Part shown: one piece after another, positions 4,592 to 57,459 of the stretch
Position numbering within the stretch: the first letter of the stretch is position 1
How the letters are laid out: each line of letters opens with the position of its first letter
Origin: Shigella phage SP18
Sequence record: GQ981382
Strand: one strand, 5' to 3'
Length of the DNA stretch: 64,000 nucleotides
Made by a program: the position numbers and the translations under genes
The notes under the pieces: generated by a model
The model's input: only the letters and a program-made list of their open reading frames with translations
Told to the model about the DNA's origin: nothing
Database searches by the model: none

Positions 4592-4630
4592 CTACTTTTT
4601 GAAGAAAATTTCAAATTTATTCGGGGTATA

Positions 4631-4659
4631 AAAAAAGCCCCAACCTTTCGGAAGGGGCT
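4631..4659 (-). terminator. rho-independent terminator (AGCCCC-loop-GGGGCT then U7 on minus strand) downstream of tRNA region
   Basis: Stem 4636-4641/4654-4659, A-run 4631-4636 on plus. Confidence 0.6.
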
Positions 4660-5944: not shown

Positions 5945-6063
5945 TATTCACCTTTAGAGATTTTATCCATAACGAAAGAGATTGAACCAATTAAAAATGC
6001 AACTACTAAAGAGATTATATTCTCAGAAGTTGAAAGCATATTCAACATAAAGCCAGCAAACAT
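5944..6063 (-). CDS. small hydrophobic peptide (39 aa), possibly the 3' part of a gene split by a frameshift from the 21-aa ORF at 6065-6130
   Basis: ATG at 6061-6063 without RBS; upstream tiny ORF 6065-6130 has a strong GAGGAG RBS and ends in a T-run. Confidence 0.3.
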   Translation of the reverse strand: MFAGFMLNMLSTSENIISLVVAFLIGSISFVMDKISKGE

Positions 6064-6150
6064 GCTAAAACCAAAAAGCGGTAACAGCAACAAGGGCAGT
6101 AACATTTCTAATTAATTCGCAACGTTTCATTTTATTCTCCTCAGTAGTTG

Positions 6151-6187
6151 ATGGGATAATCATACTACAGTTATCCCATCACGTACA
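6151..6187 (-). promoter_or_regulatory. early promoter variant: -35 TGTACG, 17 bp, -10 TATGAT inside inverted repeat GATGGGATAA/TTATCCCATC
   Basis: Near-duplicate of element at 6484-6521. Confidence 0.45.
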
Positions 6188-9541: not shown

Positions 9542-10375
9542 TTATGAATTTCTCCAAACTTTTTGTGCAGAGAATTTTTTGCCTTTGCTGTAAAAAGCTT
9601 GCAACGGAAGCATAACAACGTTTGCCCAGTCACTGGGCTTGATTTCAGTGATAGTACCTTTTATATTGCCAGGTATATATGCTTTAATCATCTGGTCAGC
9701 CCCTTTAAATCCCTTCACCTTTGACCAATCAATTTTCAGATGAGTCTTGTTCGTAATCGTAGGAGTATTAGCATATTGCTTAAGAAGTTCCTCAAGGAAC
9801 TCTTGACGCGCCTTCGGCGGAATATAGTGCAAGTTCAAACCATACATCAAATTGTGCTTACCTAGCCCAAGATAAATGATTAACGGATATTTGTCCCAGT
9901 ACGGAAGAGTATCCTTATGCTTTGCATCATAGATATAAGCATAAATTTTACCCGGTTGAGGTTTAGCCGTTACGTGGCCACGAACTGATTTCTTAATTGT
10001 CTCAGCGAACCATCTGGCAGATTTGGTGTTGCTTGCTGCACCTTCGTTAGCAATCTTATCTCTTATGCTCTTTCTAAAGCTATTCACCATTATCAGCTGG
10101 CGTTCAGCCTTCGTAAGTTTACCAGCAGGTTTCTTTTTGAGTTTGGATACTTTATAAGCAGTCTGAATTCTCGAATTGTATCTTGACATGCTTTTGGTAA
10201 AGGTCGAATAGTTGATTCCTTTCTCTTCAGCAAACTTCTTCGAAGTCATTCCCTTTTCTTTTGCTGTATAAAATTCAACCCCTATCTCAACCCATTGTTG
10301 TTCGGATTTACTGGGTTTTGGACCTGGTTTATCTGCAGATTCATTGATAAATGTAAAAATACTCATCCTTTCCAT
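9542..10375 (-). CDS. 2: gp2 DNA end protector protein (assigned by position and size)
   Basis: 277 aa, basic; lies between 3 and 4 as in T4. Confidence 0.55.
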
Positions 10376-10812
10376 CCTAATTTTTTCAGTGAGTTTTCAG
10401 TGATTATCCTGAACGTTATACCCATCTTATCCGCGGTAGCTTGTGCAGCTTTCCATTTGTCAGAGTTAACGCTCCAGGTGTACATTTCGTTAATAAATCT
10501 CTTTTTACTCGCAGTGGTATTATTGGCCGGTTTGGTTGGGGGTCTTGTTTCTTTTAATGGCTTAACTTCGAAAAAGAACTGCTGTCCTGTATCGAACTTA
10601 ACCCAGAAATCCATATAATATCTGCGCTTTTTACCTTCAGCATTGCAGAAGTATGGAATAATCACAGTCTCAGAGCCCCATTGAACAACGTTCGGATGGT
10701 TGTCGAGCCATCTCATCAACCAAGCCTCCCAGCTTGACCGGTATTGTATTTTCTTCCAGTCGCCCTTATATTTTTCTATGTTGGTGGGCTTGAATTTCCC
10801 GGAGTATGCCAT
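10363..10812 (-). CDS. 4: gp4 head completion protein
   Basis: 149 aa with GGAGG RBS and TATAAATA late promoter on minus strand 24 nt upstream; divergent from gene 53 as in T4. Confidence 0.65.
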
Positions 10813-10840: not shown

Positions 10841-10852
10841 TATTTATAAATG
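10841..10852. promoter_or_regulatory. palindromic late-promoter element between divergent genes 4 and 53 (TATAAATA on minus strand; TATAAATG on plus)
   Basis: Sequence TATTTATAAATG; exact 8/8 T4 late consensus on minus strand 24 nt from gp4 ATG. Confidence 0.6.
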
Positions 10853-10860
10853 GAGGCTTT

Positions 10861-11463
10861 ATGCTTTTTTCATTTTTTAACCCTATTGATTATGATGCGA
10901 AAACAATCAGAAAAAACTCGGCATCATTGACGAAAGAAGATGTCTTAAGCATTCCAATGACTGACATCTTCAGAAACTACCGCGCTTATTTCGATAAGGT
11001 CGCTGCTAATTATACACCCAAAACCTATTACATTGCAGGAGCTCCGAGACCCGAAGAATTGGCATATCAGCTCTATGGTAACACACAACTCTATTGGGTT
11101 CTCCTGATGATTAATGACATCTATGACCCTTATTATGGTTGGCTTGGTTCTCAGGAATCATCCTATCAGGCATCTATTCAGAAATATTCGAATGTCGGTG
11201 GTAACCAGGTCCTTTATCATGTGAATGAAGATGGTGAGAAGTTCTGGAACCTTGTATCTTATCCTGATAATCCATACACCTGGTACGATAAAGGTGATAA
11301 GAACAAATTATACCCGCAGTATGAAGGTCCATTAGCTGCAGTGGATATCTATGAAGATGCTATCCGTAAAAATGAATACAAACGCGAAATAAAAATAATT
11401 GACCCGGAAGACATTGAGTCATTTATTTCCGCGCTTATCCGTGAAATGGAGAAGGCTTTATGA
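10861..11463 (+). CDS. 53: gp53 baseplate wedge subunit
   Basis: ATG at 10861 with GGAGG RBS; 200 aa; immediately precedes gene 5 with ATGA overlap. Confidence 0.7.
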   Translation: MLFSFFNPIDYDAKTIRKNSASLTKEDVLSIPMTDIFRNYRAYFDKVAANYTPKTYYIAGAPRPEELAYQLYGNTQLYWVLLMINDIYDPYYGWLGSQESSYQASIQKYSNVGGNQVLYHVNEDGEKFWNLVSYPDNPYTWYDKGDKNKLYPQYEGPLAAVDIYEDAIRKNEYKREIKIIDPEDIESFISALIREMEKAL

Positions 11464-13247
11464 TTAATATGTCAGATAATGTAAGTTGGTTCGTCGGGGT
11501 TGTCGAAGACCGAATGGACCCACTTCAGCAAGGTCGTGTGCGTGTTCGTGTATGGGGTATGCATCCATATGAGAAAGCACAAGGGCCTGTTAAAGGTATC
11601 AGAACCGAAGACCTTCCTTGGATGTCTGTATTGATGCCGACATCATCTGCATCAGTTTCTGGGATTCAAACTGCCATGACTGGTATGGTCCCAGGTACTC
11701 AAGTATATGGTCACTTTTTAGACAAGTGGAAGCTCAACGGTCTTGTTATTGGTACGTATGGTTCAGCCTCAAGACAAAAGGCAAATCCTAACGAAGGCTT
11801 CTCTGACCCTACAGGACAATACCCGCTTTATGTTGGTAATGATGCTGCAGCGCTTAACCGTGGCGGTGAAGTCGGTTATGATGCAACTTCGAACGTAATT
11901 CAGGATGCGAACCTTGACCTTGGTATTAACCCAGATGGTCTTGATTTGAGCCAGGTTAAGCCTGATGATAATCCTAATTTCACAATTGAAAATATGCTCC
12001 ACCGTGATGAAGGTCTTCGACTGAAGGTATATTGGGACACCGAAGGTTATCCTACTATAGGCATAGGACACTTAATTGCACCACAACCTATTAGAGATAT
12101 GAATCAGATAAACAAAATATTATCTAATCAAATAGGCCGTGAAGTTAAAGGTAACCCTGGTGCAATATCAATGGACGAGGCTTCTAAGTTATTCCAAGAA
12201 GACCTTAAAAAAGTCCAAAACGATATAGGTAGGCATAGTGTTGTGGGTCCGGTTTATAATAAAGAAAACCGTTCGAGACAAATGGCTCTTGAAAACATGG
12301 CTTTCCAAATGGGATTAGGTGGATTGGCTAAATTCCGTGGAATGCTTAGCGCAATGTTAGTAGGTGATTATAAAAAAGCATTTGAGGAAGCTCGTAATTC
12401 AGTATGGTTTAACCAAACTAAAGGACGTGCATCAAGGGTATCAATGATTATCCTTACCGGTAATATGGAATCATATGGTATTATGGCTCCTAAAGAAAGG
12501 TCATTTAAAGGGCGTTCATATAGGATGATTCAAACCTTTGCAGCCCCTGCAAATTCTGACCCAGCCGACCCATGGACTCCAGAAGATACACGGATTCTAT
12601 TTAAAGAGCCAGAATCAAGTTACAAGGGCGAATATCCTTACGTGCAGACAATGCAAACTGAAGGCGGTCATATTCAGGAATTCGATAACACCCCTGGACA
12701 AGAACGTTATCGACTGATTCACCCAACCGGTTCCTACGAGGAAGTTGCACCAGATGGTCGTAAGACTTCGAAGACAGTGGCCGATGGTTATTATATGACC
12801 CAGGGTGATTCGAGTACTTACGTTGGTGGTAATAATAAAGTCAACGTTGGCGGTGATGAAACCTATTATAATATGGCTAATGTTCGTCGTCAGACCGATG
12901 GAAACGAAAGCATTCATATTCGTGGGAATGAAACCAAAACTGTAGAAGGTAATGGAACTTTGCTTGTTAAAGGAAATGTTAAAATAGTTATTATGGGTAC
13001 TGCTGATATAACTGTTGAACAAGAAGCATATATTACGGTTGAAAAAGATACAACAGTTAATGTCAACCAGAATGCAGATATAAGTGTTAAACAAAAGGCC
13101 ACAATCAATGCTCAAAATATGGATGTAAATGTCGAACAAGATTTAAATTTTGCAGCGACGAACATTAATTTAAACGCATCAAATACTGTGCATATGGATG
13201 GTGGTTCATTAGCTAAAGTATCTGGTGGCAACGTACAGGTCGGTTAA
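11460..13247 (+). CDS. 5: gp5 baseplate hub subunit and tail lysozyme (cell-puncturing device)
   Basis: N-terminal NVSWFVGVVED...; internal T4-lysozyme-like domain (HRDEGLRLKVYWDTEGYPTIGIGH); C-terminal beta-helix repeats. Confidence 0.9.
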   Translation: MINMSDNVSWFVGVVEDRMDPLQQGRVRVRVWGMHPYEKAQGPVKGIRTEDLPWMSVLMPTSSASVSGIQTAMTGMVPGTQVYGHFLDKWKLNGLVIGTYGSASRQKANPNEGFSDPTGQYPLYVGNDAAALNRGGEVGYDATSNVIQDANLDLGINPDGLDLSQVKPDDNPNFTIENMLHRDEGLRLKVYWDTEGYPTIGIGHLIAPQPIRDMNQINKILSNQIGREVKGNPGAISMDEASKLFQEDLKKVQNDIGRHSVVGPVYNKENRSRQMALENMAFQMGLGGLAKFRGMLSAMLVGDYKKAFEEARNSVWFNQTKGRASRVSMIILTGNMESYGIMAPKERSFKGRSYRMIQTFAAPANSDPADPWTPEDTRILFKEPESSYKGEYPYVQTMQTEGGHIQEFDNTPGQERYRLIHPTGSYEEVAPDGRKTSKTVADGYYMTQGDSSTYVGGNNKVNVGGDETYYNMANVRRQTDGNESIHIRGNETKTVEGNGTLLVKGNVKIVIMGTADITVEQEAYITVEKDTTVNVNQNADISVKQKATINAQNMDVNVEQDLNFAATNINLNASNTVHMDGGSLAKVSGGNVQVG

Positions 13248-13248
13248 T

Positions 13249-15312
13249 ATGAATTACTACGATAAAGTTGATGAAGTGGTAGGGACTGTAACAAGTCCCT
13301 GTGATGACGCAGTAGGACCCGGTGAATATCGCCGGGTTAAATGGGAATTATATAACCCAACAGGTGCTTTTATTCAACCTGGGAATGGCGTTGAATGGGA
13401 TACCGAGATTATTCCACTAGCTACACATTTATACACACAAAATCCATTTGGTAATAAGTCCGAAACTTTTCCTGCACCTCCGCCGCCGGAAGATGGAACA
13501 AGTCAAGGTATCTGGTGTGCTAAACTCGGAATATTCTTTATTACGCAATTGGATTTAGAAAATTATGTAGAATCGATTGGTGCAACTCTTTTGTCCGGTA
13601 ATGATTGGTACGGTGCTGATTTATCAAAATCCGTATTGTATAAAACATCTATTGAATATGATATGTATCGCATCGAAAACTGTGGCGGTGTATGGACGTC
13701 ACAAGGCCCTAGAATGGACCCCAGGACGATGATTGCAGTTACGGCTGATTATCATATGTATGTCAACTTTAACGGCCTTGGTGACTCCCGCAGGGCTTAT
13801 TTGAAGTACTATGAGACAAAACCTTGTACTTATGTTGGACTGGTATTAAATCTAGATGTTGATATGAGTATCCCAGGAACTCCGATTCCGGGACCGGTAT
13901 CCATTGGGTCTTTACCGCCAGAAATAACCGGGCGAGCCAGGGCAATAAGCTGTGTTCCTTTTACAGCGGAATTCCCTTACAACGGATTGACCAATGCGAT
14001 TATGGCTTCATGGAATACATCTAGGAATTCATTCAAATTATATTGGGATATGCTCCCTGGATGGCCATCATCTGGTGGAACCGATTGGGAAAAATTCTTC
14101 GATTCTGGTTATAGTAAGCTATCGGTCGCAATGGAAGAGCTAGGCAACTCAGCTGTTGCTATGTGTCAATATGTTCAGCAAATGGCTTTTCTTGCATTTA
14201 AAGATGCCATATCACAGGTCTTGAATATTGTTGGCGGTGGGTGGGACTTACTTAAAAGCTTTTTACCCTCGATTACTATTATGGGCATGACTATTGACCT
14301 GGAAGACCTCTGCACTTCAGGTGATGGTGTACAGAAATTAAAAGAAGCATGGAAAAACTTTAATTTAGAAGAAACCATCCAATCGATTTATTCTGCCATT
14401 GGGTCGGCATACGATTATTCGGTTGAACGCGTCAAGATGTATTCGCGTGACCTTATTGATGCAATTACAGACTTGTATGACTGGGCCTGGTCTCAATTGC
14501 TTATGGCTGGTGTTGCATTATCAAAACTGTGTGTAGACCTCGCTCAAATATGGAGTATGCCTCCTATAGTTCCGAACCCAGTTTGGAGCGTTATTACTGC
14601 GGTCAAGGAAATGATGAAGCAAGTTAAACCACTGGACATGATAATGAGCGGTAACTTTCCAGGATTCACAGCATCAGATGTTTATCAAATGGTTATGGAA
14701 AAGGTAGACCAGAAAATAGACGAAGCTTATGCAATGATTGAGGCTCTTAAAACCAAGGCACTCAATCTGTGGAATGAGATTAAGCTCAAAAAGCAAGAAG
14801 TACAAAAACAAGCTATTGAATTTAAACAATATCTTTCAGGAATGTACGAAAAAGTTACAGACGAGCTAACTGCTCAGAAGGAAGCCGCATTATCACAAGC
14901 TGAAGCTGCACTTGAACTTTTAAAGAATAAATATAATCAGATTAAGAACTCTATTACCGAAAGTCAAACCTCTGTTTCTGATGTATTAGATATGGCTTTA
15001 GAAGAATTCAAAAAACTTCCTATTGTGGCTCAAATGGAAGAACTTCTCGGTATGCTCGGAGCTACTGTAGATGATATCATGGTTATATACGAGAACTCAG
15101 TAACTAAAGCAAAATCTTTATATCACGAATTTACTGATGGTTCCAGGTCAATGAAAGACTTGTGCAAATCAATGTATAACCAAATATCAACATTATCCTT
15201 AAGTAAGGTGGTACAATGGATTAATAAGATGCTGGGAATATTCGGTTTAACGATTGCATTTCCATCCCTTTCCATTTGCATACCTTGTTTAGAATCTCCT
15301 ACTAGGAATTAA
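13249..15312 (+). CDS. unrecognised 687-aa protein between genes 5 and 6; Pro-rich N-terminal half, long helical C-terminal half
   Basis: ATG at 13249 just after gp5 stop (TAATATG); continuous ORF ending 1 nt before gene 6; no T4 counterpart recalled at this position (T4 has small 5.1/5.3/5.4). Confidence 0.6.
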   Translation: MNYYDKVDEVVGTVTSPCDDAVGPGEYRRVKWELYNPTGAFIQPGNGVEWDTEIIPLATHLYTQNPFGNKSETFPAPPPPEDGTSQGIWCAKLGIFFITQLDLENYVESIGATLLSGNDWYGADLSKSVLYKTSIEYDMYRIENCGGVWTSQGPRMDPRTMIAVTADYHMYVNFNGLGDSRRAYLKYYETKPCTYVGLVLNLDVDMSIPGTPIPGPVSIGSLPPEITGRARAISCVPFTAEFPYNGLTNAIMASWNTSRNSFKLYWDMLPGWPSSGGTDWEKFFDSGYSKLSVAMEELGNSAVAMCQYVQQMAFLAFKDAISQVLNIVGGGWDLLKSFLPSITIMGMTIDLEDLCTSGDGVQKLKEAWKNFNLEETIQSIYSAIGSAYDYSVERVKMYSRDLIDAITDLYDWAWSQLLMAGVALSKLCVDLAQIWSMPPIVPNPVWSVITAVKEMMKQVKPLDMIMSGNFPGFTASDVYQMVMEKVDQKIDEAYAMIEALKTKALNLWNEIKLKKQEVQKQAIEFKQYLSGMYEKVTDELTAQKEAALSQAEAALELLKNKYNQIKNSITESQTSVSDVLDMALEEFKKLPIVAQMEELLGMLGATVDDIMVIYENSVTKAKSLYHEFTDGSRSMKDLCKSMYNQISTLSLSKVVQWINKMLGIFGLTIAFPSLSICIPCLESPTRN

Positions 15313-15313
15313 A

Positions 15314-17272
15314 ATGGCTACTCCTACGAATTACCAATTAACAAGAACCGTTAACGCAATCCCAAAAGTATTTGTGGGAGCTACGTTTGAAGAAATTAAA
15401 AAGAACATCATTGACTGGTTATCAAGCCAGGATGAATTTAAGGATTATGATTTCGTAGGTTCGCGAATGAATATCCTGATTGATATGCTTGCATACAATA
15501 CATTGTATATGCAACAGTTTGCTAACACGGCAGTTTACGAATCATTTATCGGAACTGCAAACCTAAGGTCTTCGGTTGTTCAAGCTGCACAGGATAATGG
15601 TTATCTTCCATCTTCGCGTTCGGCCGCAAAGACTTCGGTTATGCTGACATGTTCTCACGCTCTCCAACCATCGAATATTGAAATCCCGCGTGGGACTAAG
15701 TTCCTGGCTTATGCTCGTGATACATCAGCTGACCCTTATATGTTTGTCACAACGGATAATGTAATCGCGGTAAAAGACATTAACAACCAATATCTGCCGA
15801 TTGTATCCCTTGCACAAGGTCGTATTATTCGTACTGAACTTTTGTATGACCCGAAACAACCTATTCTTATTCGTGACCCGGATATTGACCGAAAAGAAGT
15901 TAAGCTTTTTGTGAACGGTATCGAGTGGACTGACTGGACAAACAAATCAATGGTTCATGCTGGCTCAACGTCCACCATTTTCTATATGCGTGAAACTGTT
16001 GATGGTAATACCGAATTCTTCTTCGGTGAAGGTGAATCGACCAAATCTGTTGCCGGTGGCGTATTGGAAGCCAACTATATTGGTGGATTGAAACCCGTAC
16101 AGGATTCGACAATTGTTATCGAATATCTTCGCACATCAGGGGCCGATGCAAATGGTGCAGTTGATTTCAGCTATGCAGACTCCTTGACTTATATCACTGT
16201 TGACAAGATTACAGAAAACTACAATAACGATAAAGATTACGTTGGAGCTGATGGCGGTGGTGACCCGGAAGATATTGAACGAATCCGTGAACTGGCTGTA
16301 GTTAAACGTGAAGCGCAGATGCGTGCTGTCACCGGGACCGATTATGATACATTCGTATCAGAAAGATTCGGCTCAATCGTACAAGCCGTACAGACGTTTA
16401 CAGACCCAAATAAACCTGGATATGCGTTTATATCAGTTAAACCTAAATCGGGCTTGTATCTCACCGCAGTGCAGCGTGAGGACATCAAAAACTACCTTAG
16501 TGAGTTCAACGTATCGACAATTACACCATCAGTTATTTCTCCTGATTATTTGTTCCTTAAACACAATATCAAAGTGTCTTATGCGCTGAATAAATTACAG
16601 GAATCTGAACAGTGGTTGCAAGCACAAATCATTAACCAGATTGACCGCTATTATATTGATGAAGTTGAATTGTTTAACCACAGTTTTGCTAAATCGAAAC
16701 TGCTCACTTATGTAGATAATACCGACCATAGTATTTTGGGTTCGTCTGCAACGGTGACAATGGTTCGCGAGGTCTTGAACTTCTTTAAGACTCCAGAATC
16801 CGGCATTAAATATTATAATCAATATACTAATAGGTCGGTGGAATCAAGCGAATTTGAATTCGTTCCAACAAACCAAAGCGATACCGTTACCTCATATAAC
16901 GTCCGTATTGTAGCGACTGACCGCAACTCATCTGGTGATGGTAAAATGGTCATTGGTCCGTTCCGTCCAGGTGATGTTCAGCTTAATGCGAATATTCAAC
17001 CTTACACAGGTAATGACTTTAATAAGATGGTTGCACCAGCTGACCAGACTCAATACTTTGTAATCGGTGAAATCGATTATTGGTCTGATTATATCTTCTG
17101 GGACATTGCCGCGATTGGTTTGACTTCGGACCGTTTTGAAGTGCAATCAATCGAACTGTATGCGGGTCCAGACCAGGACAACATCTACACAAAAGACGGT
17201 TCGCTTATCGTATTCGAAAATGACCTTCGTCCACAGTATACGACTATTAATTTAGAACCAATTACATTATAA
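15314..17272 (+). CDS. 6: gp6 baseplate wedge subunit
   Basis: N-terminus MATPTNYQLTRTVNAIP... aligns with recalled T4 gp6; 652 aa. Confidence 0.9.
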   Translation: MATPTNYQLTRTVNAIPKVFVGATFEEIKKNIIDWLSSQDEFKDYDFVGSRMNILIDMLAYNTLYMQQFANTAVYESFIGTANLRSSVVQAAQDNGYLPSSRSAAKTSVMLTCSHALQPSNIEIPRGTKFLAYARDTSADPYMFVTTDNVIAVKDINNQYLPIVSLAQGRIIRTELLYDPKQPILIRDPDIDRKEVKLFVNGIEWTDWTNKSMVHAGSTSTIFYMRETVDGNTEFFFGEGESTKSVAGGVLEANYIGGLKPVQDSTIVIEYLRTSGADANGAVDFSYADSLTYITVDKITENYNNDKDYVGADGGGDPEDIERIRELAVVKREAQMRAVTGTDYDTFVSERFGSIVQAVQTFTDPNKPGYAFISVKPKSGLYLTAVQREDIKNYLSEFNVSTITPSVISPDYLFLKHNIKVSYALNKLQESEQWLQAQIINQIDRYYIDEVELFNHSFAKSKLLTYVDNTDHSILGSSATVTMVREVLNFFKTPESGIKYYNQYTNRSVESSEFEFVPTNQSDTVTSYNVRIVATDRNSSGDGKMVIGPFRPGDVQLNANIQPYTGNDFNKMVAPADQTQYFVIGEIDYWSDYIFWDIAAIGLTSDRFEVQSIELYAGPDQDNIYTKDGSLIVFENDLRPQYTTINLEPITL

Positions 17273-17300
17273 GCCTCTTCGGAGGCTTTAAGGAATCTTA

Positions 17301-20300
17301 ATGACTGTTAAAGCCCCTTCTGTTACTAGCTTGCGGATTGATAAACTATCTGCTAACCAGGTTAGTATTAAATGGGATGATGTAGGCTCCAACTTTTACT
17401 ATTTTGTGGAGATTGCCCAAATCACAGAAAATGGAGTACGCATCCCAACTAGAGATTTAATTTGGCGCGACCTTGGTTATACCGCAGACAATGAATGGTT
17501 CGAGCAGGAATATATTCGTCCGTTGACAAGTTATCAGATGCGTGTGTCTGTTGCGGCAATGGGCTTCGAACGGTCTGATTGGGAATATACCGAGGAATTT
17601 GAAACCTTTGCAACGAACGCATATACTTTTGAACATATGCGCGAATTTAGTTTGGCCAATAAATTCATTGAAGAAAAATTCACCAATAAAAATCAGAGCT
17701 ATATCAACTTTAACAATGATATTATTATGGCTTCATTGATGTCCGAAGACTTTACATGGACTTCTGCTTATTCTCATTTGTCTTCAATTTCGAACTATGT
17801 TTTGCAAGAAGACCAATATCATGAAATCCAGGGACCGATTCAAGCAGTTTGTGTTGACCAAAACCGTACGATGCTTGCTGAACTTGGTGGCGTGCTTTAT
17901 CTGTTCGAACGCTTTCAGCCGATGGTTAAAGTCTCCAATGACAAAGGTCAGAACTGGTATTATATAAGACTCTTTAATGAGCGTATCGGTAACCCTGTGT
18001 CAAGGACTGTATATTATCAGACTGATACCACAACTTACGTTCTGGGCTATGACCGCATATTCTATGGTCGCCAATCAAGCGATATAAGATGGTCTGCGGA
18101 TGATGTTCGATTCAGTTCTGAAGACATTACATTTGCTAAAGTCGGTTCAGATATTAACCTTGGATTTGATATTGAAATCTTCGGGAACTATGCAAGACTT
18201 CCGGCCTATATTTCACAAATAGCTGAAGCTATCACGGTTTCGGATGAATTCATTTATGTTGCGGCGCGCGGTCGTGTATATAAAGCAAAAACCTCTGATG
18301 CACCGATTGATACAACTCCAGGGTCTCCGACCTTCGGTGAAAAACTATTTGAAACTGGTTACAGTACAATTACGACAAACCCTAAAGCAGTTTGTTATAA
18401 AATGGATTCAGTTCAAGGTCATACGTTTGCATTAATTACGGGTGAAGTTAAAGAAGAAAGACAAGACCCAACTAAACCTGAAAACGTTGTTGACTCTCTG
18501 GATAAAGGCGTTTATAAATTAGACCCCGATACTGATACATGGACGAGAGTTTTTGGCAATACAGAAGAAGAACGTCGTCGAATCGAACATGGTTATGCGA
18601 GCATGTCAACTGATGGCATCGAAGTGTTCTTTAGCTCCAGTAACTTCAAATATTCGGTTGAGCCTGATACTGAACTACCTCTTAAATATCCTGATGAAGT
18701 TAATGAAGCAGTCAAATACGTTTACGATGAGCAATGGATACATGATAAGCATTACCTGATGATGAGCTTCAGAGCTGGCGAAGATTCTGGCTTCGAAGAG
18801 TTCAAACCAGGCCGTATGACTTACTATGCAGAGCCGTTCTTTAACTGGTCAAGACGTGACGATACTCGTTGTTGGATTACGACTTCAGACCGAGCAATGG
18901 TTGTCTATAACGATATTCTTTATCAGTACATCATCGATACATTTGGTGGAACTTCCCCGGAACGTATCGTGCATGAATATTGGAACAAAGGTCGAGTAAC
19001 GATTACTGCACCTAACATCGAATTCAACGGCTTTAAAAAATATGCGTCCGGGATTATGCTTCATAAAAATACCGGGGAATTAATTGGCTATTTTGAATTT
19101 GACTATCGCGTGCGTGATGAAGTGCGTATCATCTGGAAGCCAAAAGAAATTATGCTTATGGCTGAACTACAAAATCAGGAACATGATATTCCGTGGACTC
19201 CGGAAAATGAGAATAAGGAAAAAGACCCGGACTTGCAACCACTGTTAACGAAGATGATTCCAGATAGTTATCTTTTACAGGATAGTAAATTTGAAAAATT
19301 CTGTGAATACTATTTGCAGTTCATCAGTGATGGTTCCGGTACATATTATAACAACCTGTTGAATCTTATTCGTAATCAATATCCGCGCGAGGAAGATGCA
19401 TGGGAATATCTCTGGAGCGAAATGTACAAACGCAACATTTACCTCTCCAAGGAAAAACGTGACGAAGCTGTTCGATTCTTCCAGGCCCGACAGTCTGATT
19501 TTTGGGCAACAAAAGGTACAGAAGCGTCTTATAAATTCCTGTTCAAATTACTGTATAATGAAGATGTTGAAATTGACATCGAATCCAAGAACGGAACCGA
19601 GTATGATATCGTAGTTGAATCTGATAATATCAGTGAAGACATTGTAGGCCAAACCATTTATACCGCAACTGGGCGCAGTAATGTGACTTATATGGAGCGC
19701 GATTATAAAGATGGTAAATTAAGATGGCGTATTACTATTCATAACCTCCTGGGACGTTTTATTGTTGGACAAGAAATTAAATCAGAAAGAACCTCATTCG
19801 AGGGGATGATTGTACAAGGTGTTCGTGGTAAAGAGTTGTTGAGTAACAACATCGATTATATTAACCGTAATCGCTCTTATTACGTAATGACAATTAAGTC
19901 AAACCTTCCGACCTCCCGTTATCGTAATGACGTTTTGAGATTCGTTCACCCGGTTGGATTTGGATTCATCGGTATCACGTTGCTGACAATGTTTGTTAAC
20001 GTTGGTTTGACTCTTAAACATACCGAGACAATCATTAATAAATTAAGTAACTATAGATGGTCTTCTGGTATTCCATCAGAATGGAATGACCGAGTTGCGG
20101 TGATTGGTGTTGATGGCACTATTGAGAAAAACCCTATCACAGGTGAAGCAATATATAACATCGCTCCTAATGCTGGCCAGCCTTTCCCGTTACCAGCCGA
20201 TTATGACGCCGAGAACGATTTCTCTATGTTCTATGGATTGTTACCGTCACAACGTCGTGGAAAATATAGTCCACTGTTTGACCAGTCAGCTGTTACATTC

Positions 20301-20396
20301 TCGAACTGGAGAGCATTAGTTGACCAACGTCTTAAAGATGATATTGGTAATCCAAGAGACCCGGTTAATCCTACACAGGTAAATGTAAATGAATAA
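17301..20396 (+). CDS. 7: gp7 baseplate wedge initiator
   Basis: 1031 aa (T4 gp7 1032 aa), in conserved position. Confidence 0.85.
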   Translation: MTVKAPSVTSLRIDKLSANQVSIKWDDVGSNFYYFVEIAQITENGVRIPTRDLIWRDLGYTADNEWFEQEYIRPLTSYQMRVSVAAMGFERSDWEYTEEFETFATNAYTFEHMREFSLANKFIEEKFTNKNQSYINFNNDIIMASLMSEDFTWTSAYSHLSSISNYVLQEDQYHEIQGPIQAVCVDQNRTMLAELGGVLYLFERFQPMVKVSNDKGQNWYYIRLFNERIGNPVSRTVYYQTDTTTYVLGYDRIFYGRQSSDIRWSADDVRFSSEDITFAKVGSDINLGFDIEIFGNYARLPAYISQIAEAITVSDEFIYVAARGRVYKAKTSDAPIDTTPGSPTFGEKLFETGYSTITTNPKAVCYKMDSVQGHTFALITGEVKEERQDPTKPENVVDSLDKGVYKLDPDTDTWTRVFGNTEEERRRIEHGYASMSTDGIEVFFSSSNFKYSVEPDTELPLKYPDEVNEAVKYVYDEQWIHDKHYLMMSFRAGEDSGFEEFKPGRMTYYAEPFFNWSRRDDTRCWITTSDRAMVVYNDILYQYIIDTFGGTSPERIVHEYWNKGRVTITAPNIEFNGFKKYASGIMLHKNTGELIGYFEFDYRVRDEVRIIWKPKEIMLMAELQNQEHDIPWTPENENKEKDPDLQPLLTKMIPDSYLLQDSKFEKFCEYYLQFISDGSGTYYNNLLNLIRNQYPREEDAWEYLWSEMYKRNIYLSKEKRDEAVRFFQARQSDFWATKGTEASYKFLFKLLYNEDVEIDIESKNGTEYDIVVESDNISEDIVGQTIYTATGRSNVTYMERDYKDGKLRWRITIHNLLGRFIVGQEIKSERTSFEGMIVQGVRGKELLSNNIDYINRNRSYYVMTIKSNLPTSRYRNDVLRFVHPVGFGFIGITLLTMFVNVGLTLKHTETIINKLSNYRWSSGIPSEWNDRVAVIGVDGTIEKNPITGEAIYNIAPNAGQPFPLPADYDAENDFSMFYGLLPSQRRGKYSPLFDQSAVTFSNWRALVDQRLKDDIGNPRDPVNPTQVNVNE

Positions 20397-21393
20397 CTCT
20401 ACCGTAGTTTACCGTTCGATTGTTACATCAAAATTCAGAACGGAAAAAATGTATAACTTCTACAGCGTCATCGGAGATGGCGCCAATGAAAATACAATGT
20501 ATGTCACGTTCGGTCGTGCAGAACCATGGGCTGCAAACGAGAACGACCCGGGCTTTGCTCCACCTTATCCGGTTGATGATGCCCAAGGTGTTGAAGATGT
20601 TTGGACTAATATGATGGGTGCAGTCAAGGTGTATAAATCCATGCTTGACTGCGTGGTTCCTCGTAAGGATTGGGGTGATGTTCGTTATCCTAACCCGCTG
20701 AACTTTCAGATTGGCGAAATCGTCGTAAGTAATACCGCACCATATAACCGAACTGATGTTGGTAAAGGTTGGATGGTTTATCGTTGTGTGGATGTTCCTG
20801 AATCTGGGACCTGTTCGATTTATTCCATCACTAATAAGCAAGAATGTCTTAAGCTTGGTGGTAAATGGACTTCAGACTATGCTTCCAGCCGAGCACCATC
20901 AGGGACTGGTGATACTGAAGGACGTGTTGATATGGGTGATGGTTATCTCTGGGAATATCTCTATGAGATTCCACCTGACGTATCCATTAACCGTTGTACA
21001 AACGAATATATCGTTGTCCCATGGCCAGAAGAAATTGCAGAAGACCCTGAACGTTGGGGATACAAAGATAACCTGACATGGCAGCAAGATGATTATGGTT
21101 TAATCTATCGTATCAAGGGAAATACAATTCGATTCAAGGCTTTCATGGATTCGATTTATTTCCCTCAGTTCAGTCTTCCAGGTAACAAAGGTTTTAGACA
21201 AATTTCAATTGTCGCTAACCCTCTGGAAATTAAAGCTGCTCCTAATGACCCGAATATCAAAGCAACAAAAGAATATTACGATGCTATTGATTTGAGTCGA
21301 CATTCTGGTGAAATGATTTACATGGAAAACAGACCACCTGTTTATCGTGCGATGGACCAAACCGAAGAAGTAAATATTATTTTTGAATTCTAA
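20389..21393 (+). CDS. 8: gp8 baseplate wedge subunit
   Basis: 334 aa as in T4; terminator hairpin follows. Confidence 0.85.
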   Translation: MNNSTVVYRSIVTSKFRTEKMYNFYSVIGDGANENTMYVTFGRAEPWAANENDPGFAPPYPVDDAQGVEDVWTNMMGAVKVYKSMLDCVVPRKDWGDVRYPNPLNFQIGEIVVSNTAPYNRTDVGKGWMVYRCVDVPESGTCSIYSITNKQECLKLGGKWTSDYASSRAPSGTGDTEGRVDMGDGYLWEYLYEIPPDVSINRCTNEYIVVPWPEEIAEDPERWGYKDNLTWQQDDYGLIYRIKGNTIRFKAFMDSIYFPQFSLPGNKGFRQISIVANPLEIKAAPNDPNIKATKEYYDAIDLSRHSGEMIYMENRPPVYRAMDQTEEVNIIFEF

Positions 21394-21396
21394 CTA

Positions 21397-21420
21397 GGGA
21401 CCTTCGGGTCCCTTTTTATT
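21397..21420 (+). terminator. rho-independent terminator GGGACC-TTCG-GGTCCC-T5 after gene 8
   Basis: UUCG tetraloop hairpin plus T-run. Confidence 0.75.
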
Positions 21421-21421
21421 T

Positions 21422-21429
21422 TATAAATA
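21422..21429 (+). promoter_or_regulatory. late promoter TATAAATA upstream of gene 9
   Basis: Exact consensus 27 nt before ATG. Confidence 0.65.
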
Positions 21430-21456
21430 TAGCTATATCAATAATGAGGCTTACCT

Positions 21457-22326
21457 ATGATTAATCAAACCCCAAAACTTTTAATAGATGTCGGCGAAAT
21501 TGGTAACGCCAGCACCGGCGATATCTTATATGATGGTGGTCGTAAAATTAACGAAGATTTTAATAACGTCTATAATACCTTCGGTGACCAACGTCTTTAT
21601 TCAATCGATAACGGCCAGAACTCTCAGGTCTTGCATGCTACAGGTTATTATCAAAAAGCAACAAACATAATCGAATGGAACACTCCTGTTGCGCTTGGTT
21701 CTCTCCGCGATGTCGATACCTCCAAGGGTGTTGTTACTGCCAGGATTGCCCGCGGTAAAATGGGTGAAGGTATTATCTTCATTAACTCTAACGGGACTTT
21801 ATCACCAACTCAATCTCTGGAAATCGAACTTCAAGGCACAGATACTTTCGTTTCGGCTCCGACCAACAAAATTCGCTTCACAAGCCCTTATACAAAGATT
21901 ACTCTTTGGTGTATCGATGACGCAAACGGCGTTGGCACCTGGGATTATTCAATCGAAAATATGTTTGGTGTAAAACATATTCCTTTGGACCGAACTTATA
22001 ATATCGGTCTGAACGCAAGAGATATTCCGATTGCATTGCGCGGTGATTTCAAAACAATGAAACTTTTGTTAACCGCTATATCTACTGATGAAACTAAATA
22101 CAAAGCATCAGAGGTCATGCTCTTTGTAGACACTCAAGCTAACCAAGTGTATAGCACAGAATACGGTGTATTGCGTCGTGGTCACGTGGATGACGATGAT
22201 GAGTTATATACCATTAACTTTAAAATAGGCGCTGACAACTTCGTTACGGCGACCGTAAGCGCACCAGTCTCCATGAAGCTCGCCATTAAGGTAGCCGAGA
22301 CACAAACCATTGGGGTAGCAATCTAA
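21457..22326 (+). CDS. 9: gp9 baseplate wedge subunit / long tail fibre socket
   Basis: 289 aa; TATAAATA late promoter at 21422-21429. Confidence 0.85.
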   Translation: MINQTPKLLIDVGEIGNASTGDILYDGGRKINEDFNNVYNTFGDQRLYSIDNGQNSQVLHATGYYQKATNIIEWNTPVALGSLRDVDTSKGVVTARIARGKMGEGIIFINSNGTLSPTQSLEIELQGTDTFVSAPTNKIRFTSPYTKITLWCIDDANGVGTWDYSIENMFGVKHIPLDRTYNIGLNARDIPIALRGDFKTMKLLLTAISTDETKYKASEVMLFVDTQANQVYSTEYGVLRRGHVDDDDELYTINFKIGADNFVTATVSAPVSMKLAIKVAETQTIGVAI

Positions 22327-24136
22327 TGAAACAAAATTTAAAAATAGGCGTGATGGTCGATGATGGTACCGGCGATTATCTTCGTCTCGGCGGCCAAAAA
22401 TTAATAATAACTTTGATGACCTTTACTACCAGCTCGGTGATGGAGAAAATCCTCATGCTGCTGGTGCATGGAAAACATGGTCAGTAGCCGACGGTACAAC
22501 TCTGGAAGCCGTTATGGGTCGTAGCTATGCAGTGAATACCTCAAATGGTATGATTACTGTTAAGCTTCCTAAAGGAACTCCGTCTGAATATAATTACGTT
22601 ATTCGTTTGCGTGATGTGTTTGCAACTTGGCAAGTCTCCCCGGTGACGATTGTTCCGGCTGTTGGCGACACAATGAAAGGTTCTCCTGACCCTGTTGTTA
22701 TCCGTCGTAACCTGGCAGATATCGAACTGGTTTATTGCTCTCCTGGCCGTTGGGAATATATTGACAACAAACAGATTGACAAGATTTCGAATAACGACGT
22801 GGCAACTGTTGAGACCCAGCAATTCATCGCAACAGAAGGTCAAACGGACTTCCTGGATGTGTTTAATGGTCGTCCTTATAACATTGCAAGTCTCGAAGTT
22901 AAACATCGTGGTAACGACCTGTTTTATGGCAAAGATGATATTTTCGACCCGGTGAATGCTGAATTCGGTTCGCCTGGTGCAGCGCCTGGTGAAATTGTAA
23001 CCCTTGACGGTCGCAATATTCGTTTACGTATGCCTTGTGCAGCTGGTGACACGGTTATTGTCAGAACATTCAACGATGGTATTGCTCAGTATCGTAGTTC
23101 TTATAACCGTCGAGATGTTCAAATCCGTGATTCGAAATTTACTCTTGAAACCCCGGTCGAAGGCTCTTTGGTTGTAGCTGATTTATCTACTAAACACACA
23201 TTTATGGTTACTGAACTTGCGGTATCTCCTAGCAGTCCAATTAACCCGAATGCATGTGAAGTTTATATCAACAGCATATTACAGCACGAAGCAGGAACTG
23301 CAAACTATCCAGCTTATACATGCGAAGGTGCTAATGGTGACACTGCAGAAGAGTGTACAGATAATGGTGGTCAATGGGCTAAATCAAAAGAAGACTATAT
23401 AACAACCTTTGATGAAGACAACCGTATTGAATCTTTTGAGTTTGCTCGCACATTTGAAGATGGTGATATTCTGTCTATCGTTTGGTATAATAACGATATT
23501 GGCACCACAATGACTCTTGATGAAATTACAGATGAAACAAATAACATCTATGTTTCCCAGGGTCCAGAAGTTTCAATCACCGGTGATATAAGAATTACGG
23601 ATTACGATAATCCATTTGCTCCTAACCTGGAACCGGTTGACCCGAGCGAAATTAAACCATCTGCTGTTTCGATTCTCTTTAATATGTTCCATCCAATTGG
23701 CACAATTTACGAGAATACGACTAACCCAAATAACCCTGCGACATATATGGGTATGGGAACATGGAAGCGACTTGAAGAGCGTGTTTTGATTGGTTGGTCT
23801 GCTGACCCAGCCTCAAACTTCCATACAAACAATAACGACCTGGATTCTTCTGGTGTTCCGCAGGCAACCGCAGGGGGTACTGGTGGTAATGTACAAATTC
23901 ACATTAAACCAACCAATATTCCTAAAATTCAGACCGATGAAAAAGTATTGGTAGCTGATGCAACTGGCCCAATTATTGTTGGTGGTTGCCTGATTGACCC
24001 GGATGCACAAGGTCCTGCTTATACAAACTATCGCGAAGATTATGCGACTATTAATGAAGCTCTTGACCCACTGGCACAGCCAATAGATACGCTTCCTCCA
24101 TATTTGATTGTTTACCGTTGGGTAAGGATTGCATAA
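22326..24136 (+). CDS. 10: gp10 baseplate wedge subunit, reading frame interrupted by an apparent 1-nt deletion in an A5 run (22396-22400)
   Basis: ATG at 22326 (TAATG with gp9) gives MKQNLKIGVMVDDGTGDYLRLGGQ in frame A; from the A-run the T4-like sequence KINNNFDDLYYQLGDG... continues in the -1 frame to 24136; joined length 603 aa versus T4 602. Confidence 0.75.
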
Positions 24137-24801
24137 TGACTACGTTGACAAATAAAAAGGCGAGTGTAATATCTCGCCATGCTGGTTACCTCCAGTTTGA
24201 TTATACCACTACCGATTCCACTGCTGTAGCGGGTAACCGCTATATCGGTGGTCCATCTGCTAACCAGACAAATGACGGTGTATTCTATCCGACAGTCCAG
24301 AGCGCAATTGATGATATTGCATTTCGTGCAGAACTTCCTGTCGGGTCGATAATTACTCGTCATGAGAATACTGCTCCTGGATTTATTAGTCAGTCAGATA
24401 AGATTAAGTTCACCGGGTCTATTTCTGGCGAAAACCTTGGCGAAACGGTTCTTATTAAAGTATTCGGTTTCCCGGTAGAAGTTATTGTCGGTGACTCGAG
24501 CGTGCTGGTTGCATCGAAAGTCAATGACGTTCTTTTGACTGCAATTTCACAGGGAATGATTATTTCTGCGACTGCTATCGATGCACTGGACCAGTCTATA
24601 TTAAATATTACATATAACGACTATCAGAATCACATCTTTGCTCCCATGACTCAATATGGTTGTGTTATGGAACAAACTATTGTTCAACAACCACGTGCCG
24701 GGTATGGGCAATGGGAATATCTTGGTTTACAAGATGTAACATTGCAAGGCGGTTCGGTTAATGGTCCAACATCTCTTTACTACTATAAGCGAGTCTACTA
24801 A
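24136..24801 (+). CDS. 11: gp11 baseplate wedge subunit (short tail fibre attachment)
   Basis: TAATG overlap start; about 221 aa; similarity to recalled T4 gp11. Confidence 0.85.
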   Translation: MTTLTNKKASVISRHAGYLQFDYTTTDSTAVAGNRYIGGPSANQTNDGVFYPTVQSAIDDIAFRAELPVGSIITRHENTAPGFISQSDKIKFTGSISGENLGETVLIKVFGFPVEVIVGDSSVLVASKVNDVLLTAISQGMIISATAIDALDQSILNITYNDYQNHIFAPMTQYGCVMEQTIVQQPRAGYGQWEYLGLQDVTLQGGSVNGPTSLYYYKRVY

Positions 24802-26333
24802 TGACAACGACTAACACGCTAAAACATATTAGCGATAAATCCGAATATAAAACATTTGACCCGGTGGGAACTTCATTTCCTCCGTCGGTAACAAATGTTC
24901 AGGAAGCATTGGGAGCTTTGGCTCCTATTGCTATTGATGGATTTATCCCAGAATCTACGGTTGCAGTACCAGGTATTATTCGCCTGGCGACCGAACAAGA
25001 AGTTATTGATGGCATAGGCAATAACACTGCGGTAACCCCCGAAACTCTTAAAGCTCGTTTGAATATTCCAACTCAGGCCACAGAGACTGTTGTCGGAATT
25101 ACCCGTTACGCAACCGATGTAGAAGCTATTGATGGCACAGTAACCGATGCAGCTATTGTCCCATCAAGTCTTAAAGCTTCTATTGATAATACATTTAATA
25201 CCCGCACTTCTACAGAAGACCGTAATGGTGTAATTAAGATTTCGACTCAAGCCGCTGCTCTGGCAGGAACAGATGATACAACGGCAATGACTCCTTTGAA
25301 GGTTTCATTGGCCATCGGTGCAGCAACTGCAGCTCTTCCAACTTATAGCACAGCAACAACCACTGTACAGGGGATTGTTAAAATTGCAACCCCAGCCGAG
25401 GTTCAAGCCGGTGCAATGAATAACGGTGTGGCAGTTTCTCCACTTGGACTTATTTCATTGACTGCAAATGCCTCTCGCAGAGGGTTGGTCCAATTGGCTT
25501 CCAGTGCTGAAGCAATTACAGGTACGGATGCAACAAAAGCAATTACCCCACAAGCTCTTCAGGCAAAAACTGGTAATACCGGACGACTTGGTATTGTCAA
25601 ACTGACAACTACCGTTGGTTCAGGGGATGGTAACACTGCTCTTGCATATAATGCAAACGTAATTTCAACCACTGGTGGTACAATTACTGGAACTCTTAAC
25701 GTCAACGGAACTTTACGTAGAAATGGCCAGGACGTTGTAACCCGCAATGAAATTAAAGATGATGTTCCAATCGGAACTATTATTATGTGGGGTGGACAGA
25801 CAGGAAATATTCCTTCTGGTTGGGAAATTTGTGACGGTGGTAATGTCGGTGATGCTGGTTTCCGAAATGTCGTTGGTAGTAAATGGGGCGCAACTGGTAA
25901 TAAGCCAGATTTTCGTGGATTATTCCCTCGCGGTTCCAATAGCTCTAACGATGGCGCTATGAAGGAATGGGAAACAAACATTAATATAAGAAACGCCAAG
26001 GGAAATGATTCCAAACAAAAACCTAAATTGGGTCAAGGTGTTGGTTCATATGGCCATGGTACAGTGCAGGCACAACAACTCCGTTTCCACAAGCACGCAG
26101 GTGGGTTTGGTGAATTTTCTGATGACGGCTCTTTTGGTAATAGCATACGTTCTAATTTTGTAGGGACTAGCAAAAAAATAGACTGGGATAACCGCTCATA
26201 TTATACCAACGAGGGATATGAAATAGATGGTAATAATCGCACCCCTAAAAGTACATTAAACAGCGAAGGTCTGATAGGTAATGAAAGCCGCCCATGGTCC
26301 ATGTCCATTCTTTTTATTATTAAGGTCAGATAA
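24801..26333 (+). CDS. 12: gp12 short tail fibre
   Basis: 510 aa; Thr/Ala/Gly-rich repeats; conserved position. Confidence 0.85.
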   Translation: MTTTNTLKHISDKSEYKTFDPVGTSFPPSVTNVQEALGALAPIAIDGFIPESTVAVPGIIRLATEQEVIDGIGNNTAVTPETLKARLNIPTQATETVVGITRYATDVEAIDGTVTDAAIVPSSLKASIDNTFNTRTSTEDRNGVIKISTQAAALAGTDDTTAMTPLKVSLAIGAATAALPTYSTATTTVQGIVKIATPAEVQAGAMNNGVAVSPLGLISLTANASRRGLVQLASSAEAITGTDATKAITPQALQAKTGNTGRLGIVKLTTTVGSGDGNTALAYNANVISTTGGTITGTLNVNGTLRRNGQDVVTRNEIKDDVPIGTIIMWGGQTGNIPSGWEICDGGNVGDAGFRNVVGSKWGATGNKPDFRGLFPRGSNSSNDGAMKEWETNINIRNAKGNDSKQKPKLGQGVGSYGHGTVQAQQLRFHKHAGGFGEFSDDGSFGNSIRSNFVGTSKKIDWDNRSYYTNEGYEIDGNNRTPKSTLNSEGLIGNESRPWSMSILFIIKVR

Positions 26334-57431: not shown

Positions 57432-57438
57432 AAAGAAA

Positions 57439-57459
57439 GGGACCGAAGGTCCCTTTTTA
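57439..57459. terminator. bidirectional terminator GGGACC-GAA-GGTCCC-T5 between gene 54 (+) and minus-strand gene
   Basis: Hairpin plus T-run; A-run upstream. Confidence 0.7.

What the first reader, a model, noticed from the sequence alone, without database searches (positions are those of the whole stretch)
22326..22520. Essential baseplate gene 10 is interrupted by an apparent 1-nt deletion in an A5 run
From the ATG at 22326 the first 24 codons (MKQNLKIGVMVDDGTGDYLRLGGQ) match the T4 gp10 N-terminus, then the frame hits TAG at about 22497. The T4-like continuation KINNNFDDLYYQLGDGENPHAAGAWKTW... is in the -1 frame starting exactly at the run CAAAAATT (22395-22402); one additional A would give GGQKINNNF. 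Restored length would be 603 aa versus T4 602. Either the deposited sequence has a homopolymer error, or the phage needs slippage to make gp10.
Basis: seen in the sequence. Interest (0 to 1): 0.5.

Follow-up and report, generated by a model that had tools for sequence, protein, structure and literature searches.

The report
Homopolymer sequencing error splits gp10
The baseplate gene 10 of Shigella phage SP18 looks broken only because the deposited, pyrosequenced genome is almost certainly one A short in a run of six, so this is an ordinary database error and not a new way of making the protein.

Summary
From ATG 22326 the frame runs 53 codons to a TAG at 22485-22487. The gp10 sequence continues in the -1 frame from the A5 run (22396-22400) to the stop at 24134-24136. 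Adding one A restores a 603-aa protein that aligns end to end with T4 gp10 (602 aa, E = 7e-219).

The window is Shigella phage SP18. Its record annotates the two pieces as "hypothetical protein SP18gp170" (53 aa) and a 540-aa gp10 starting at Met 22514.

All 15 related sequences I read carry A6 and an intact 603-aa gene. These are 5 GenBank Gaprivervirus genomes and 10 independent Logan assemblies that encode the identical gp9. One assembly is 99.54% identical to SP18 over 15.5 kb. The only two indels in that stretch are this A-run and a T-run at 21412, and SP18 is one base short in both.

A second conserved gene near 6073 is also broken by an SP18-only homopolymer length change. A review states that SP18 was pyrosequenced, a chemistry known for such errors.

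There is no conserved frameshift signal, and the internal Met has an unremarkable ribosome-binding site.

Verdict: a sequencing artefact (about 0.88). A real mutation rescued by slippage remains a small residual possibility.

The parts
22326..22487 (+). 5' piece of gene 10 as it stands in the record. It is a 53-aa ORF annotated as hypothetical protein SP18gp170, and only its first 25 codons are true gp10 sequence.
   Evidence: sequence and ORF; exact match to ADO19510.1, a singleton cluster; Pfam T4_gp9_10_N profile positions 1-25
22396..22400 (+). The A5 homopolymer. It is A6 in all 15 related sequences read, and it is the site of the apparent 1-nt deletion.
22400..24136 (+). The rest of gene 10 in the -1 frame, from KINNNF... 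to the stop at 24134-24136. The record annotates only 22514-24136 (540 aa) as gp10.
22514..22516 (+). Internal ATG that the GenBank/RefSeq annotation uses as the gp10 start. This is an annotation consequence of the frameshift.
   Evidence: ADO19511.1 / YP_003934794.1 equals the 540-aa ORF; anti-SD pairing -3.3 kcal/mol, and 30% of all ATGs in the window score at least as well
21408..21412 (+). T5 tract after the terminator-like hairpin between gp8 and gp9. It is T6 in all 5 GenBank relatives and in 8 of 10 Logan assemblies, including the nearest relative. In the other two (L015, L019) the gap falls in a shifted alignment column. The pattern matches the gp10 site: SP18 is one base short in a 6-mer homopolymer.
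6073..6077 (-). A5 on the + strand (T5 on the coding strand), where VR20, CJ20 and the SRR4022189 contig have a run of 4. It cuts a conserved 61-aa Trna.4-like gene to 21 aa. This is a second homopolymer frame break in the same record.

Best explanation
The deposited SP18 sequence undercalls a six-A homopolymer as five, a typical pyrosequencing (454) consensus error. The real phage most likely has CAA AAA ATT and encodes an ordinary uninterrupted 603-aa gp10. That gene would start at ATG 22326, translationally coupled to gp9 through the overlapping TAATG. The 53-aa hypothetical protein and the N-terminally truncated 540-aa gp10 in GenBank/RefSeq are annotation artefacts of that single missing base. 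The allele comparison, the second broken gene and the sequencing chemistry are shown by the evidence. That the physical SP18 DNA has A6 is inferred.
For: (1) All 5 close GenBank relatives (phage 212, VR20, CJ20, VR25, VR7; 95.6-98.5% identical) have A6 and a 603-aa gp10.
(2) Ten independent Illumina-era Logan assemblies that encode SP18's exact gp9 all have a 603-aa gp10 immediately downstream, and an A fills the alignment column that is missing in SP18.
(3) The nearest relative, the SRR4022189 contig, is 99.54% identical over 15,484 bp. The only two indels in that stretch are A6>A5 at 22395 and T6>T5 at 21412, with SP18 the short one in both. A genuine 3-nt gp12 deletion is shared by the two genomes, which shows how close they are.
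(4) A second conserved gene, the 61-aa Trna.4-like gene, is frame-broken in SP18 alone by a 4>5 homopolymer change at 6073. VR20 and CJ20 show no breaks in annotated genes over the same 64 kb.
(5) On the SP18 branch there are 4 isolated 1-nt indels per 792 substitutions, against 1 per 1275 on the other two branches (Fisher p = 0.075). Three of the four lie in runs whose longer allele is 5 or 6 bases.
(6) A review citing Kim et al. 2010 states that the SP18 genome was obtained by pyrosequencing (PMC3694061).
(7) The 63 N-terminal residues, encoded across the two frames, are 100% identical to those of phage 212, CJ20, VR25 and VR7.
(8) The 53-aa stub forms a singleton cluster among about 15 billion proteins.
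(9) gp10 is one of the seven gene products of the strictly ordered wedge assembly, and its N-terminal domain carries the short tail fibre (PMC3004832). SP18 was isolated as a lytic phage of S. sonnei (PMC3694061).
Against: No reads or chromatograms for SP18 could be examined, so the A6 state of the physical DNA is inferred and not observed. Homopolymers are also natural indel hot spots. The branch-normalised excess of indels in SP18 is only marginally significant (p = 0.075). The intergenic length differences could be real polymorphisms.
Confidence: 0.88

Rival explanations
1. The A5 allele is real in the sequenced stock. Full-length gp10 would then be made at low level by spontaneous -1 ribosomal slippage of tRNA-Lys on A_AAA (22397-22400), or the lysate was a mixture of A5 and A6 genomes and the consensus picked the defective allele.
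For: The geometry allows it. A tRNA-Lys reading AAA at 22398-22400 can re-pair perfectly with AAA at 22397-22399, and the next -1 codon ATT restores ...QKINNNF. From general knowledge, A-runs read by tRNA-Lys are slippage-prone in E. coli. A predicted hairpin lies downstream at 22427-22466 (z = -3.46).
Against: The flanking sequence is identical to that of relatives that are in frame with A6, so nothing here has evolved to promote shifting. The hairpin begins 26 nt after the run, whereas known -1 stimulators sit about 5-9 nt away (general knowledge). No good Shine-Dalgarno-like element lies 10-14 nt upstream. A P-site CAA cannot re-pair in the -1 frame, so this is not a tandem-slippage heptamer. 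Unstimulated slippage of about 1% or less would starve assembly of a protein present as a trimer in each of six wedges. The same record carries another singleton homopolymer frame break.
Confidence: 0.07
2. gp10 of SP18 really starts at Met 22514, as annotated, and works without its first 63 residues. The 53-aa ORF would then be a separate small protein or a remnant.
For: This is what GenBank and RefSeq annotate. The three C-terminal Pfam domains are intact in the 540-aa product.
Against: The 540-aa product lacks profile positions 1-75 of the 175-position T4_gp9_10_N domain. That is the trimeric domain to which gp12 attaches coaxially (PMC3004832). The -1 frame is open and perfectly conserved for 38 codons upstream of Met 22514, and the residues there are identical to those of relatives. 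The ribosome-binding context of ATG 22514 is ordinary (-3.3 kcal/mol, the 30th percentile of all ATGs), whereas ATG 22326 is coupled to the gp9 stop. The other gp10 proteins listed in the 50-member cluster are 603 aa, apart from one of 594 aa (P896), whose genome record begins just before the gene.
Confidence: 0.02
3. This is a programmed recoding site that Gapriverviruses use to make two products from gene 10.
For: None beyond the presence of an A-run at the junction.
Against: A programmed site would have to be conserved, yet every relative examined is in frame at this position. In the A6 genomes a -1 slip would give a short out-of-frame product that shows no sign of conservation.
Confidence: 0.01

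Closest known systems
Bacteriophage T4 gp10 (baseplate wedge protein / tail pin; PDB 2FL8, 5IV5, 5HX2)
   Same: The restored 603-aa protein aligns from residue 1 to the end with T4 gp10 (602 aa, E = 7e-219). It has the same four Pfam domains: T4_gp9_10_N, T4_gp9_10_C, Gp10_D3 and Gp10_C. Gene order gp8-gp9-gp10-gp11-gp12 is the same.
   Different: As deposited, the reading frame is interrupted after codon 25 by a missing A. Otherwise this is just a diverged orthologue.
gp10 of other Gaprivervirus phages (VR7, VR20, VR25, CJ20, phage 212) and of metagenomic assemblies
   Same: 95.6-99.7% nucleotide identity, and an identical N-terminal 63 residues in four of the five GenBank genomes.
   Different: They carry A6 where the SP18 record has A5, and all are uninterrupted 603-aa ORFs.
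Homopolymer-length miscalls of 454 pyrosequencing
   Same: These are single-base under- and over-calls confined to mononucleotide runs (A6>A5, T6>T5, A4>A5, C4>C5, A6>A7). They are seen only in this record, and the genome is reported to have been pyrosequenced.
   Different: The attribution is circumstantial, because the raw flowgrams or reads were not available.
Programmed -1 ribosomal frameshifting (E. coli dnaX; phage tail chaperone G/GT-type sites)
   Same: An A-rich run lies at the junction, and a -1 shift would restore the frame.
   Different: There is no X_XXY_YYZ tandem-slippery heptamer, no stimulator at the right distance, and no conservation of the out-of-frame arrangement in relatives.

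Membership tests
T4 gp10 baseplate wedge protein family | Full-length sequence homology to T4 gp10 | tested here: met
   Restored 603-aa protein against PDB 2FL8/5HX2 gp10: residues 1-603 against 1-602, E = 7e-219.
T4 gp10 baseplate wedge protein family | Domain architecture T4_gp9_10_N + T4_gp9_10_C + Gp10_D3 + Gp10_C | tested here: met
   All four Pfam domains score above their gathering cut-offs in the restored protein. The annotated 540-aa product retains only profile positions 76-174 of the N-terminal domain.
T4 gp10 baseplate wedge protein family | Position between gp9 and gp11 in the baseplate wedge cluster | tested here: met
   ORF order in the window, and the annotated synteny in VR20, VR7 and CJ20.
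T4 gp10 baseplate wedge protein family | A single uninterrupted reading frame | tested here: not met
   Not met in the deposited sequence because of the A5 run. Met in all 15 relatives. The failure is attributed to a sequence error.
Programmed -1 ribosomal frameshift site | The out-of-frame arrangement is conserved in related genomes | tested here: not met
   All relatives are in frame, with A6.
Programmed -1 ribosomal frameshift site | Tandem slippery heptamer X_XXY_YYZ in the zero frame | tested here: not met
   The zero-frame sequence is C_CAA_AAA. The P-site codon CAA cannot re-pair as CCA, and only the single tRNA-Lys could slip.
Programmed -1 ribosomal frameshift site | Stimulatory structure about 5-9 nt downstream, or an SD-like element about 10-14 nt upstream | tested here: not met
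   The first 26 nt after the run are unpaired and AT-rich, and the predicted hairpin spans 22427-22466. The upstream sequence GATTATCTTCGTCTCGGCGGCC has no GGAGG-like element at that distance.
Programmed -1 ribosomal frameshift site | Measured frameshift product | not testable with these tools
   This needs a reporter assay or mass spectrometry.
Pyrosequencing homopolymer artefact | The indel is confined to a mononucleotide run and is unique to the one record | tested here: met
   A5 against A6 in 15 relatives, and the stub ORF is a singleton cluster.
Pyrosequencing homopolymer artefact | Further errors of the same kind elsewhere in the same record | tested here: met
   6073 (breaks the Trna.4-like gene), 21412, 4630-4636, 57808 and 57442/57453 are all SP18-only homopolymer length changes. 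The branch-normalised excess is marginal (p = 0.075).
Pyrosequencing homopolymer artefact | The genome was produced with flow-based chemistry | tested here: met
   [quoted passage not shown] 2010. The primary paper was not read.
Pyrosequencing homopolymer artefact | Independent reads of the same DNA show the longer run | not testable with these tools
   No SP18 read data are accessible here.

The most novel reading that the evidence does not exclude
The SP18 stock really carries A5 in gene 10 and survives because unstimulated -1 slippage of tRNA-Lys on A_AAA, or a minority of A6 revertant genomes, supplies enough full-length gp10. That would make it a natural leaky frameshift in an essential baseplate gene.
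Probability: 0.07. Interest if true: 0.45.

Novelty: not a real feature. Interest (0 to 1): 0.06.

Why it matters
The biological significance is small, but there is some curation value. The RefSeq/GenBank record of the exemplar Gaprivervirus phage SP18 propagates a truncated gp10 (YP_003934794.1, 540 aa), a spurious 53-aa hypothetical protein (YP_003934793.1), and at least one more broken small gene. Anyone who uses SP18 proteins for structural modelling, pangenomes or recoding-site surveys would be misled. The record should carry a frameshift/pseudo note or be corrected after resequencing. If the A5 allele were real, it would be a modestly interesting case of an essential structural gene living on spontaneous slippage, but nothing here points that way.

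Tried and rejected
(a) I searched the phage collection for the window's own record to see how it was annotated. It is not there (best hit 98.5%), so I identified the source by exact protein look-up instead.

(b) I scanned IMG/VR and the JGI metagenome contigs for the exact A5 allele and found 0 hits. These nulls are nearly uninformative. A gap-tolerant control pattern found only VR20 and VR25 in IMG/VR (both A6) and nothing at all in the metagenome set.

(c) The raw indel census against VR20 and CJ20 gave 50 shared events, most of them paired compensating gaps in divergent stretches. I replaced it with a split-gene test and an isolated-indel test.

(d) The apparent split of a window + strand ORF at 57461-58159 in VR20 and CJ20 turned out to be an antisense ORF over the minus-strand alt region. 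The underlying C4>C5 change at 57808 is intergenic.

(e) The branch-normalised indel excess is only p = 0.075, so I do not rely on it alone.

(f) A literature search for published comments on SP18 frameshifts found nothing relevant. One search failed on a term that was too short.

(g) The downstream hairpin (z = -3.46) was considered as a frameshift stimulator and rejected because it lies 26 nt away and the same sequence is present in in-frame relatives.

Full report
**What is in the sequence**

The window has an ATG at 22326-22328 that overlaps the TAA of the upstream 289-aa gp9 gene (TAATG). Frame 0 reads MKQNLKIGVMVDDGTGDYLRLGGQK, then 28 unrelated residues, and stops at a TAG at 22485-22487.

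The run C-AAAAA-TT is at 22395-22402, with the five A at 22396-22400. The -1 frame is open from 22364. From the last A of the run it reads KINNNFDDLYYQLGDGENPHAAGAWKTW... through Met 22514 to the stop at 24134-24136. Adding one A gives a 603-aa protein.

That protein aligns residue 1 to 603 with T4 gp10 (602 aa, PDB 2FL8/5HX2) at E = 7e-219. It contains the four gp10 Pfam domains. In T4_gp9_10_N (175 positions), the 53-aa stub carries profile positions 1-25 and the 540-aa ORF starts at position 76. The interruption therefore falls inside a single domain.

**Where the window comes from**

Exact-sequence look-up shows that the window is Shigella phage SP18 (170,605 bp). The 53-aa ORF is ADO19510.1 / YP_003934793.1, "hypothetical protein SP18gp170". 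The 540-aa ORF is ADO19511.1 / YP_003934794.1, "baseplate wedge subunit and tail pin". The split is thus already in GenBank and RefSeq, but it is annotated as two genes and not flagged.

The stub forms a one-member cluster among about 15 billion proteins. The listed members of the 50-member gp10 cluster are 603 aa, apart from SP18's 540 aa and one 594-aa entry (P896) whose genome record begins just upstream of the gene.

**Comparison with relatives**

SP18 belongs to the T4-like genus Gaprivervirus. Five GenBank relatives (phage 212, VR20, CJ20, VR25, VR7) are 95.6-98.5% identical over this region. All have six A at the site and an uninterrupted 1812-nt gene 10.

Ten independent Logan assemblies that encode exactly SP18's gp9 protein all have a 603-aa gp10 called immediately downstream. 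All ten have an A in the alignment column that SP18 lacks.

The most informative relative is a 23.8-kb contig from SRR4022189. Over 15,484 aligned bases (window 10844-26325) it is 99.54% identical to SP18. It shares a genuine 3-nt deletion in gp12 with SP18. The only two indels in that stretch are A6>A5 at 22395 and T6>T5 at 21412, and SP18 is one base short of a six-base homopolymer in both.

The 63 N-terminal residues that SP18 encodes across two frames are 100% identical to those of phage 212, CJ20, VR25 and VR7.

**Is this an isolated defect in the record?**

I mapped all ORFs of 70 aa or more from VR20 and CJ20 onto the window with tblastn. Only two genes are split between frames in SP18.

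- One is gp10.
- The other is a 61-aa minus-strand Trna.4-like gene (Pfam Phage_T4_Y07D in the SRR4022189 contig). SP18 alone has a run of 5 where VR20, CJ20 and SRR4022189 have 4 (window 6073-6077). This cuts the protein to 21 aa, while the remaining residues stay conserved out of frame.

The reciprocal controls found no split in any annotated gene of VR20 or CJ20 over the same 64 kb. The apparent splits there are antisense ORFs over minus-strand genes.

Further SP18-only homopolymer length differences lie in intergenic DNA:

- 4630-4636: A7 against A6.
- 57808: C5 against C4.
- 57442/57453: C2 against C3 and T5 against T6, at a hairpin.

I then normalised by branch over 46.3 kb. SP18 has 4 isolated 1-nt indels per 792 substitutions, against 1 per 1275 for VR20 and CJ20 together. 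The Fisher p-value is 0.075, which is suggestive but underpowered. The window contains 247 A or T runs of 5 or more, so there was plenty of opportunity for such errors.

**Sequencing chemistry**

A review of Shigella phages, citing the primary paper (Kim et al. [quoted passage not shown] It also says that SP18 lyses S. sonnei (PMC3694061). From general knowledge, flow-based pyrosequencing is known for miscalling homopolymer length in both directions. That is the pattern seen here: both under-calls and over-calls, always by one base and always in a mononucleotide run.

**Could the interruption be biological?**

Three alternatives were weighed.

(i) Slippage. A tRNA-Lys on AAA (22398-22400) could re-pair with AAA at 22397-22399, and ATT would then restore the frame, so the geometry allows a -1 shift. 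Several points count against it:

- The zero-frame context C_CAA_AAA is not a tandem slippery heptamer.
- The 26 nt after the run are unpaired and AT-rich. The only predicted hairpin (22427-22466, z = -3.46) is too far away to act as a stimulator.
- No SD-like element sits at the distance that promotes -1 shifts.
- All of this flanking sequence is identical in relatives that are in frame.
- From general knowledge, five A is far below the run length at which E. coli RNA polymerase slips appreciably.

(ii) Initiation at Met 22514, as annotated. The anti-SD pairing there is -3.3 kcal/mol, and 30% of all ATGs in the window score at least as well. ATG 22326 scores -6.0 and is coupled to the gp9 stop. 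The truncated product would lose 75 of the 175 profile positions of the N-terminal domain. Leiman et al. describe that domain as trimeric and gp9-like, and as the coaxial attachment site of the short tail fibre gp12. They list gp10 among the seven gene products of the strictly ordered wedge assembly (PMC3004832).

(iii) Programmed recoding. This is excluded because no relative shares the out-of-frame arrangement.

**Searches that added little**

Scans of IMG/VR and the JGI metagenome contigs for the exact A5 allele returned nothing. A gap-tolerant control showed that IMG/VR contains only VR20 and VR25 at this site (both A6) and that the metagenome set contains no copy at all. These nulls therefore carry almost no weight. 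A literature search for published remarks on SP18 frameshifts found nothing.

**Conclusion**

The finding is a correctly observed, already deposited but unflagged frame break. It is best explained as a one-base homopolymer undercall in a pyrosequenced genome (confidence about 0.88). The real gene 10 of SP18 is most likely an ordinary 603-aa T4-type gp10.

The residual alternatives are:

- a genuine mutation tolerated through leaky slippage or population heterogeneity (about 0.07);
- a truly truncated gp10 (about 0.02);
- programmed recoding (about 0.01).

Resequencing across 22300-22550, or a junction-spanning peptide from virions, would settle it. Interest is low, and the practical value is in correcting the reference record.

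Noticed in passing
window 5944-6165 (minus strand), run at 6073-6077: A conserved 61-aa Trna.4-like small protein gene that looks like a membrane protein (Pfam Phage_T4_Y07D in the nearest relative). In SP18 it is frame-broken after 21 aa by an SP18-only homopolymer change from 4 to 5 bases. It is intact in VR20, CJ20 and the SRR4022189 contig. This is probably a second sequencing error in the record.
   Followed up: yes
window 21397-21420: The terminator-like hairpin GGGACCTTCGGGTCCC between gp8 and gp9 is followed by T5 in SP18. The 5 GenBank relatives and 8 of the 10 Logan assemblies, including the nearest relative, have T6. A near-identical hairpin motif at about 57436-57458 also shows SP18-only C and T run shortenings.
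   Followed up: partly
window 13225-15312 (+): A 695-aa ORF directly after a 595-aa gp5 (phrog_5296, unknown function, no Pfam hit above cut-off). It occupies the place where VR20-type genomes have gp5.1 and the PAAR protein gp5.4. CJ20 and some Logan assemblies share this alternative cassette. It raises the question of what caps the gp5 spike in these phages.
   Followed up: partly
window 26230 (gp12, 24801-26333): SP18 gp12 is 510 aa against 511 aa in most relatives because of an in-frame 3-nt deletion. The 99.5%-identical SRR4022189 contig shares it, so this difference is real and not an error.
   Followed up: yes
window 22427-22466: A predicted RNA hairpin inside the gp10 coding region (MFE -22.1 kcal/mol for the 80-nt segment, z = -3.46 against shuffles). 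It lies 26 nt downstream of the A-run. The sequence is the same in the in-frame relatives, and its significance is unknown.
   Followed up: partly
L001 (PQ765507.1, Escherichia phage 212): The closest GenBank relative annotates gp8, gp10 and gp11 only as misc_feature "similar to ...", although its gp10 reading frame is intact (603 aa). This is an annotation oddity in that record.
   Followed up: partly
L023 5542-6676 (SRR4022189 contig): The nearest relative has an extra 235-aa minus-strand gene with no Pfam hit between gp4 and gp53, and its gp4 is called at 118 aa against 149 aa in SP18 (window 10363-10812). It may be a mobile insertion that SP18 lacks.
   Followed up: no
window 4630-4636 and 57804-57808: SP18-only homopolymer over-lengths in intergenic DNA (A7 against A6, C5 against C4). 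These could be either polymorphisms or further pyrosequencing over-calls.
   Followed up: partly
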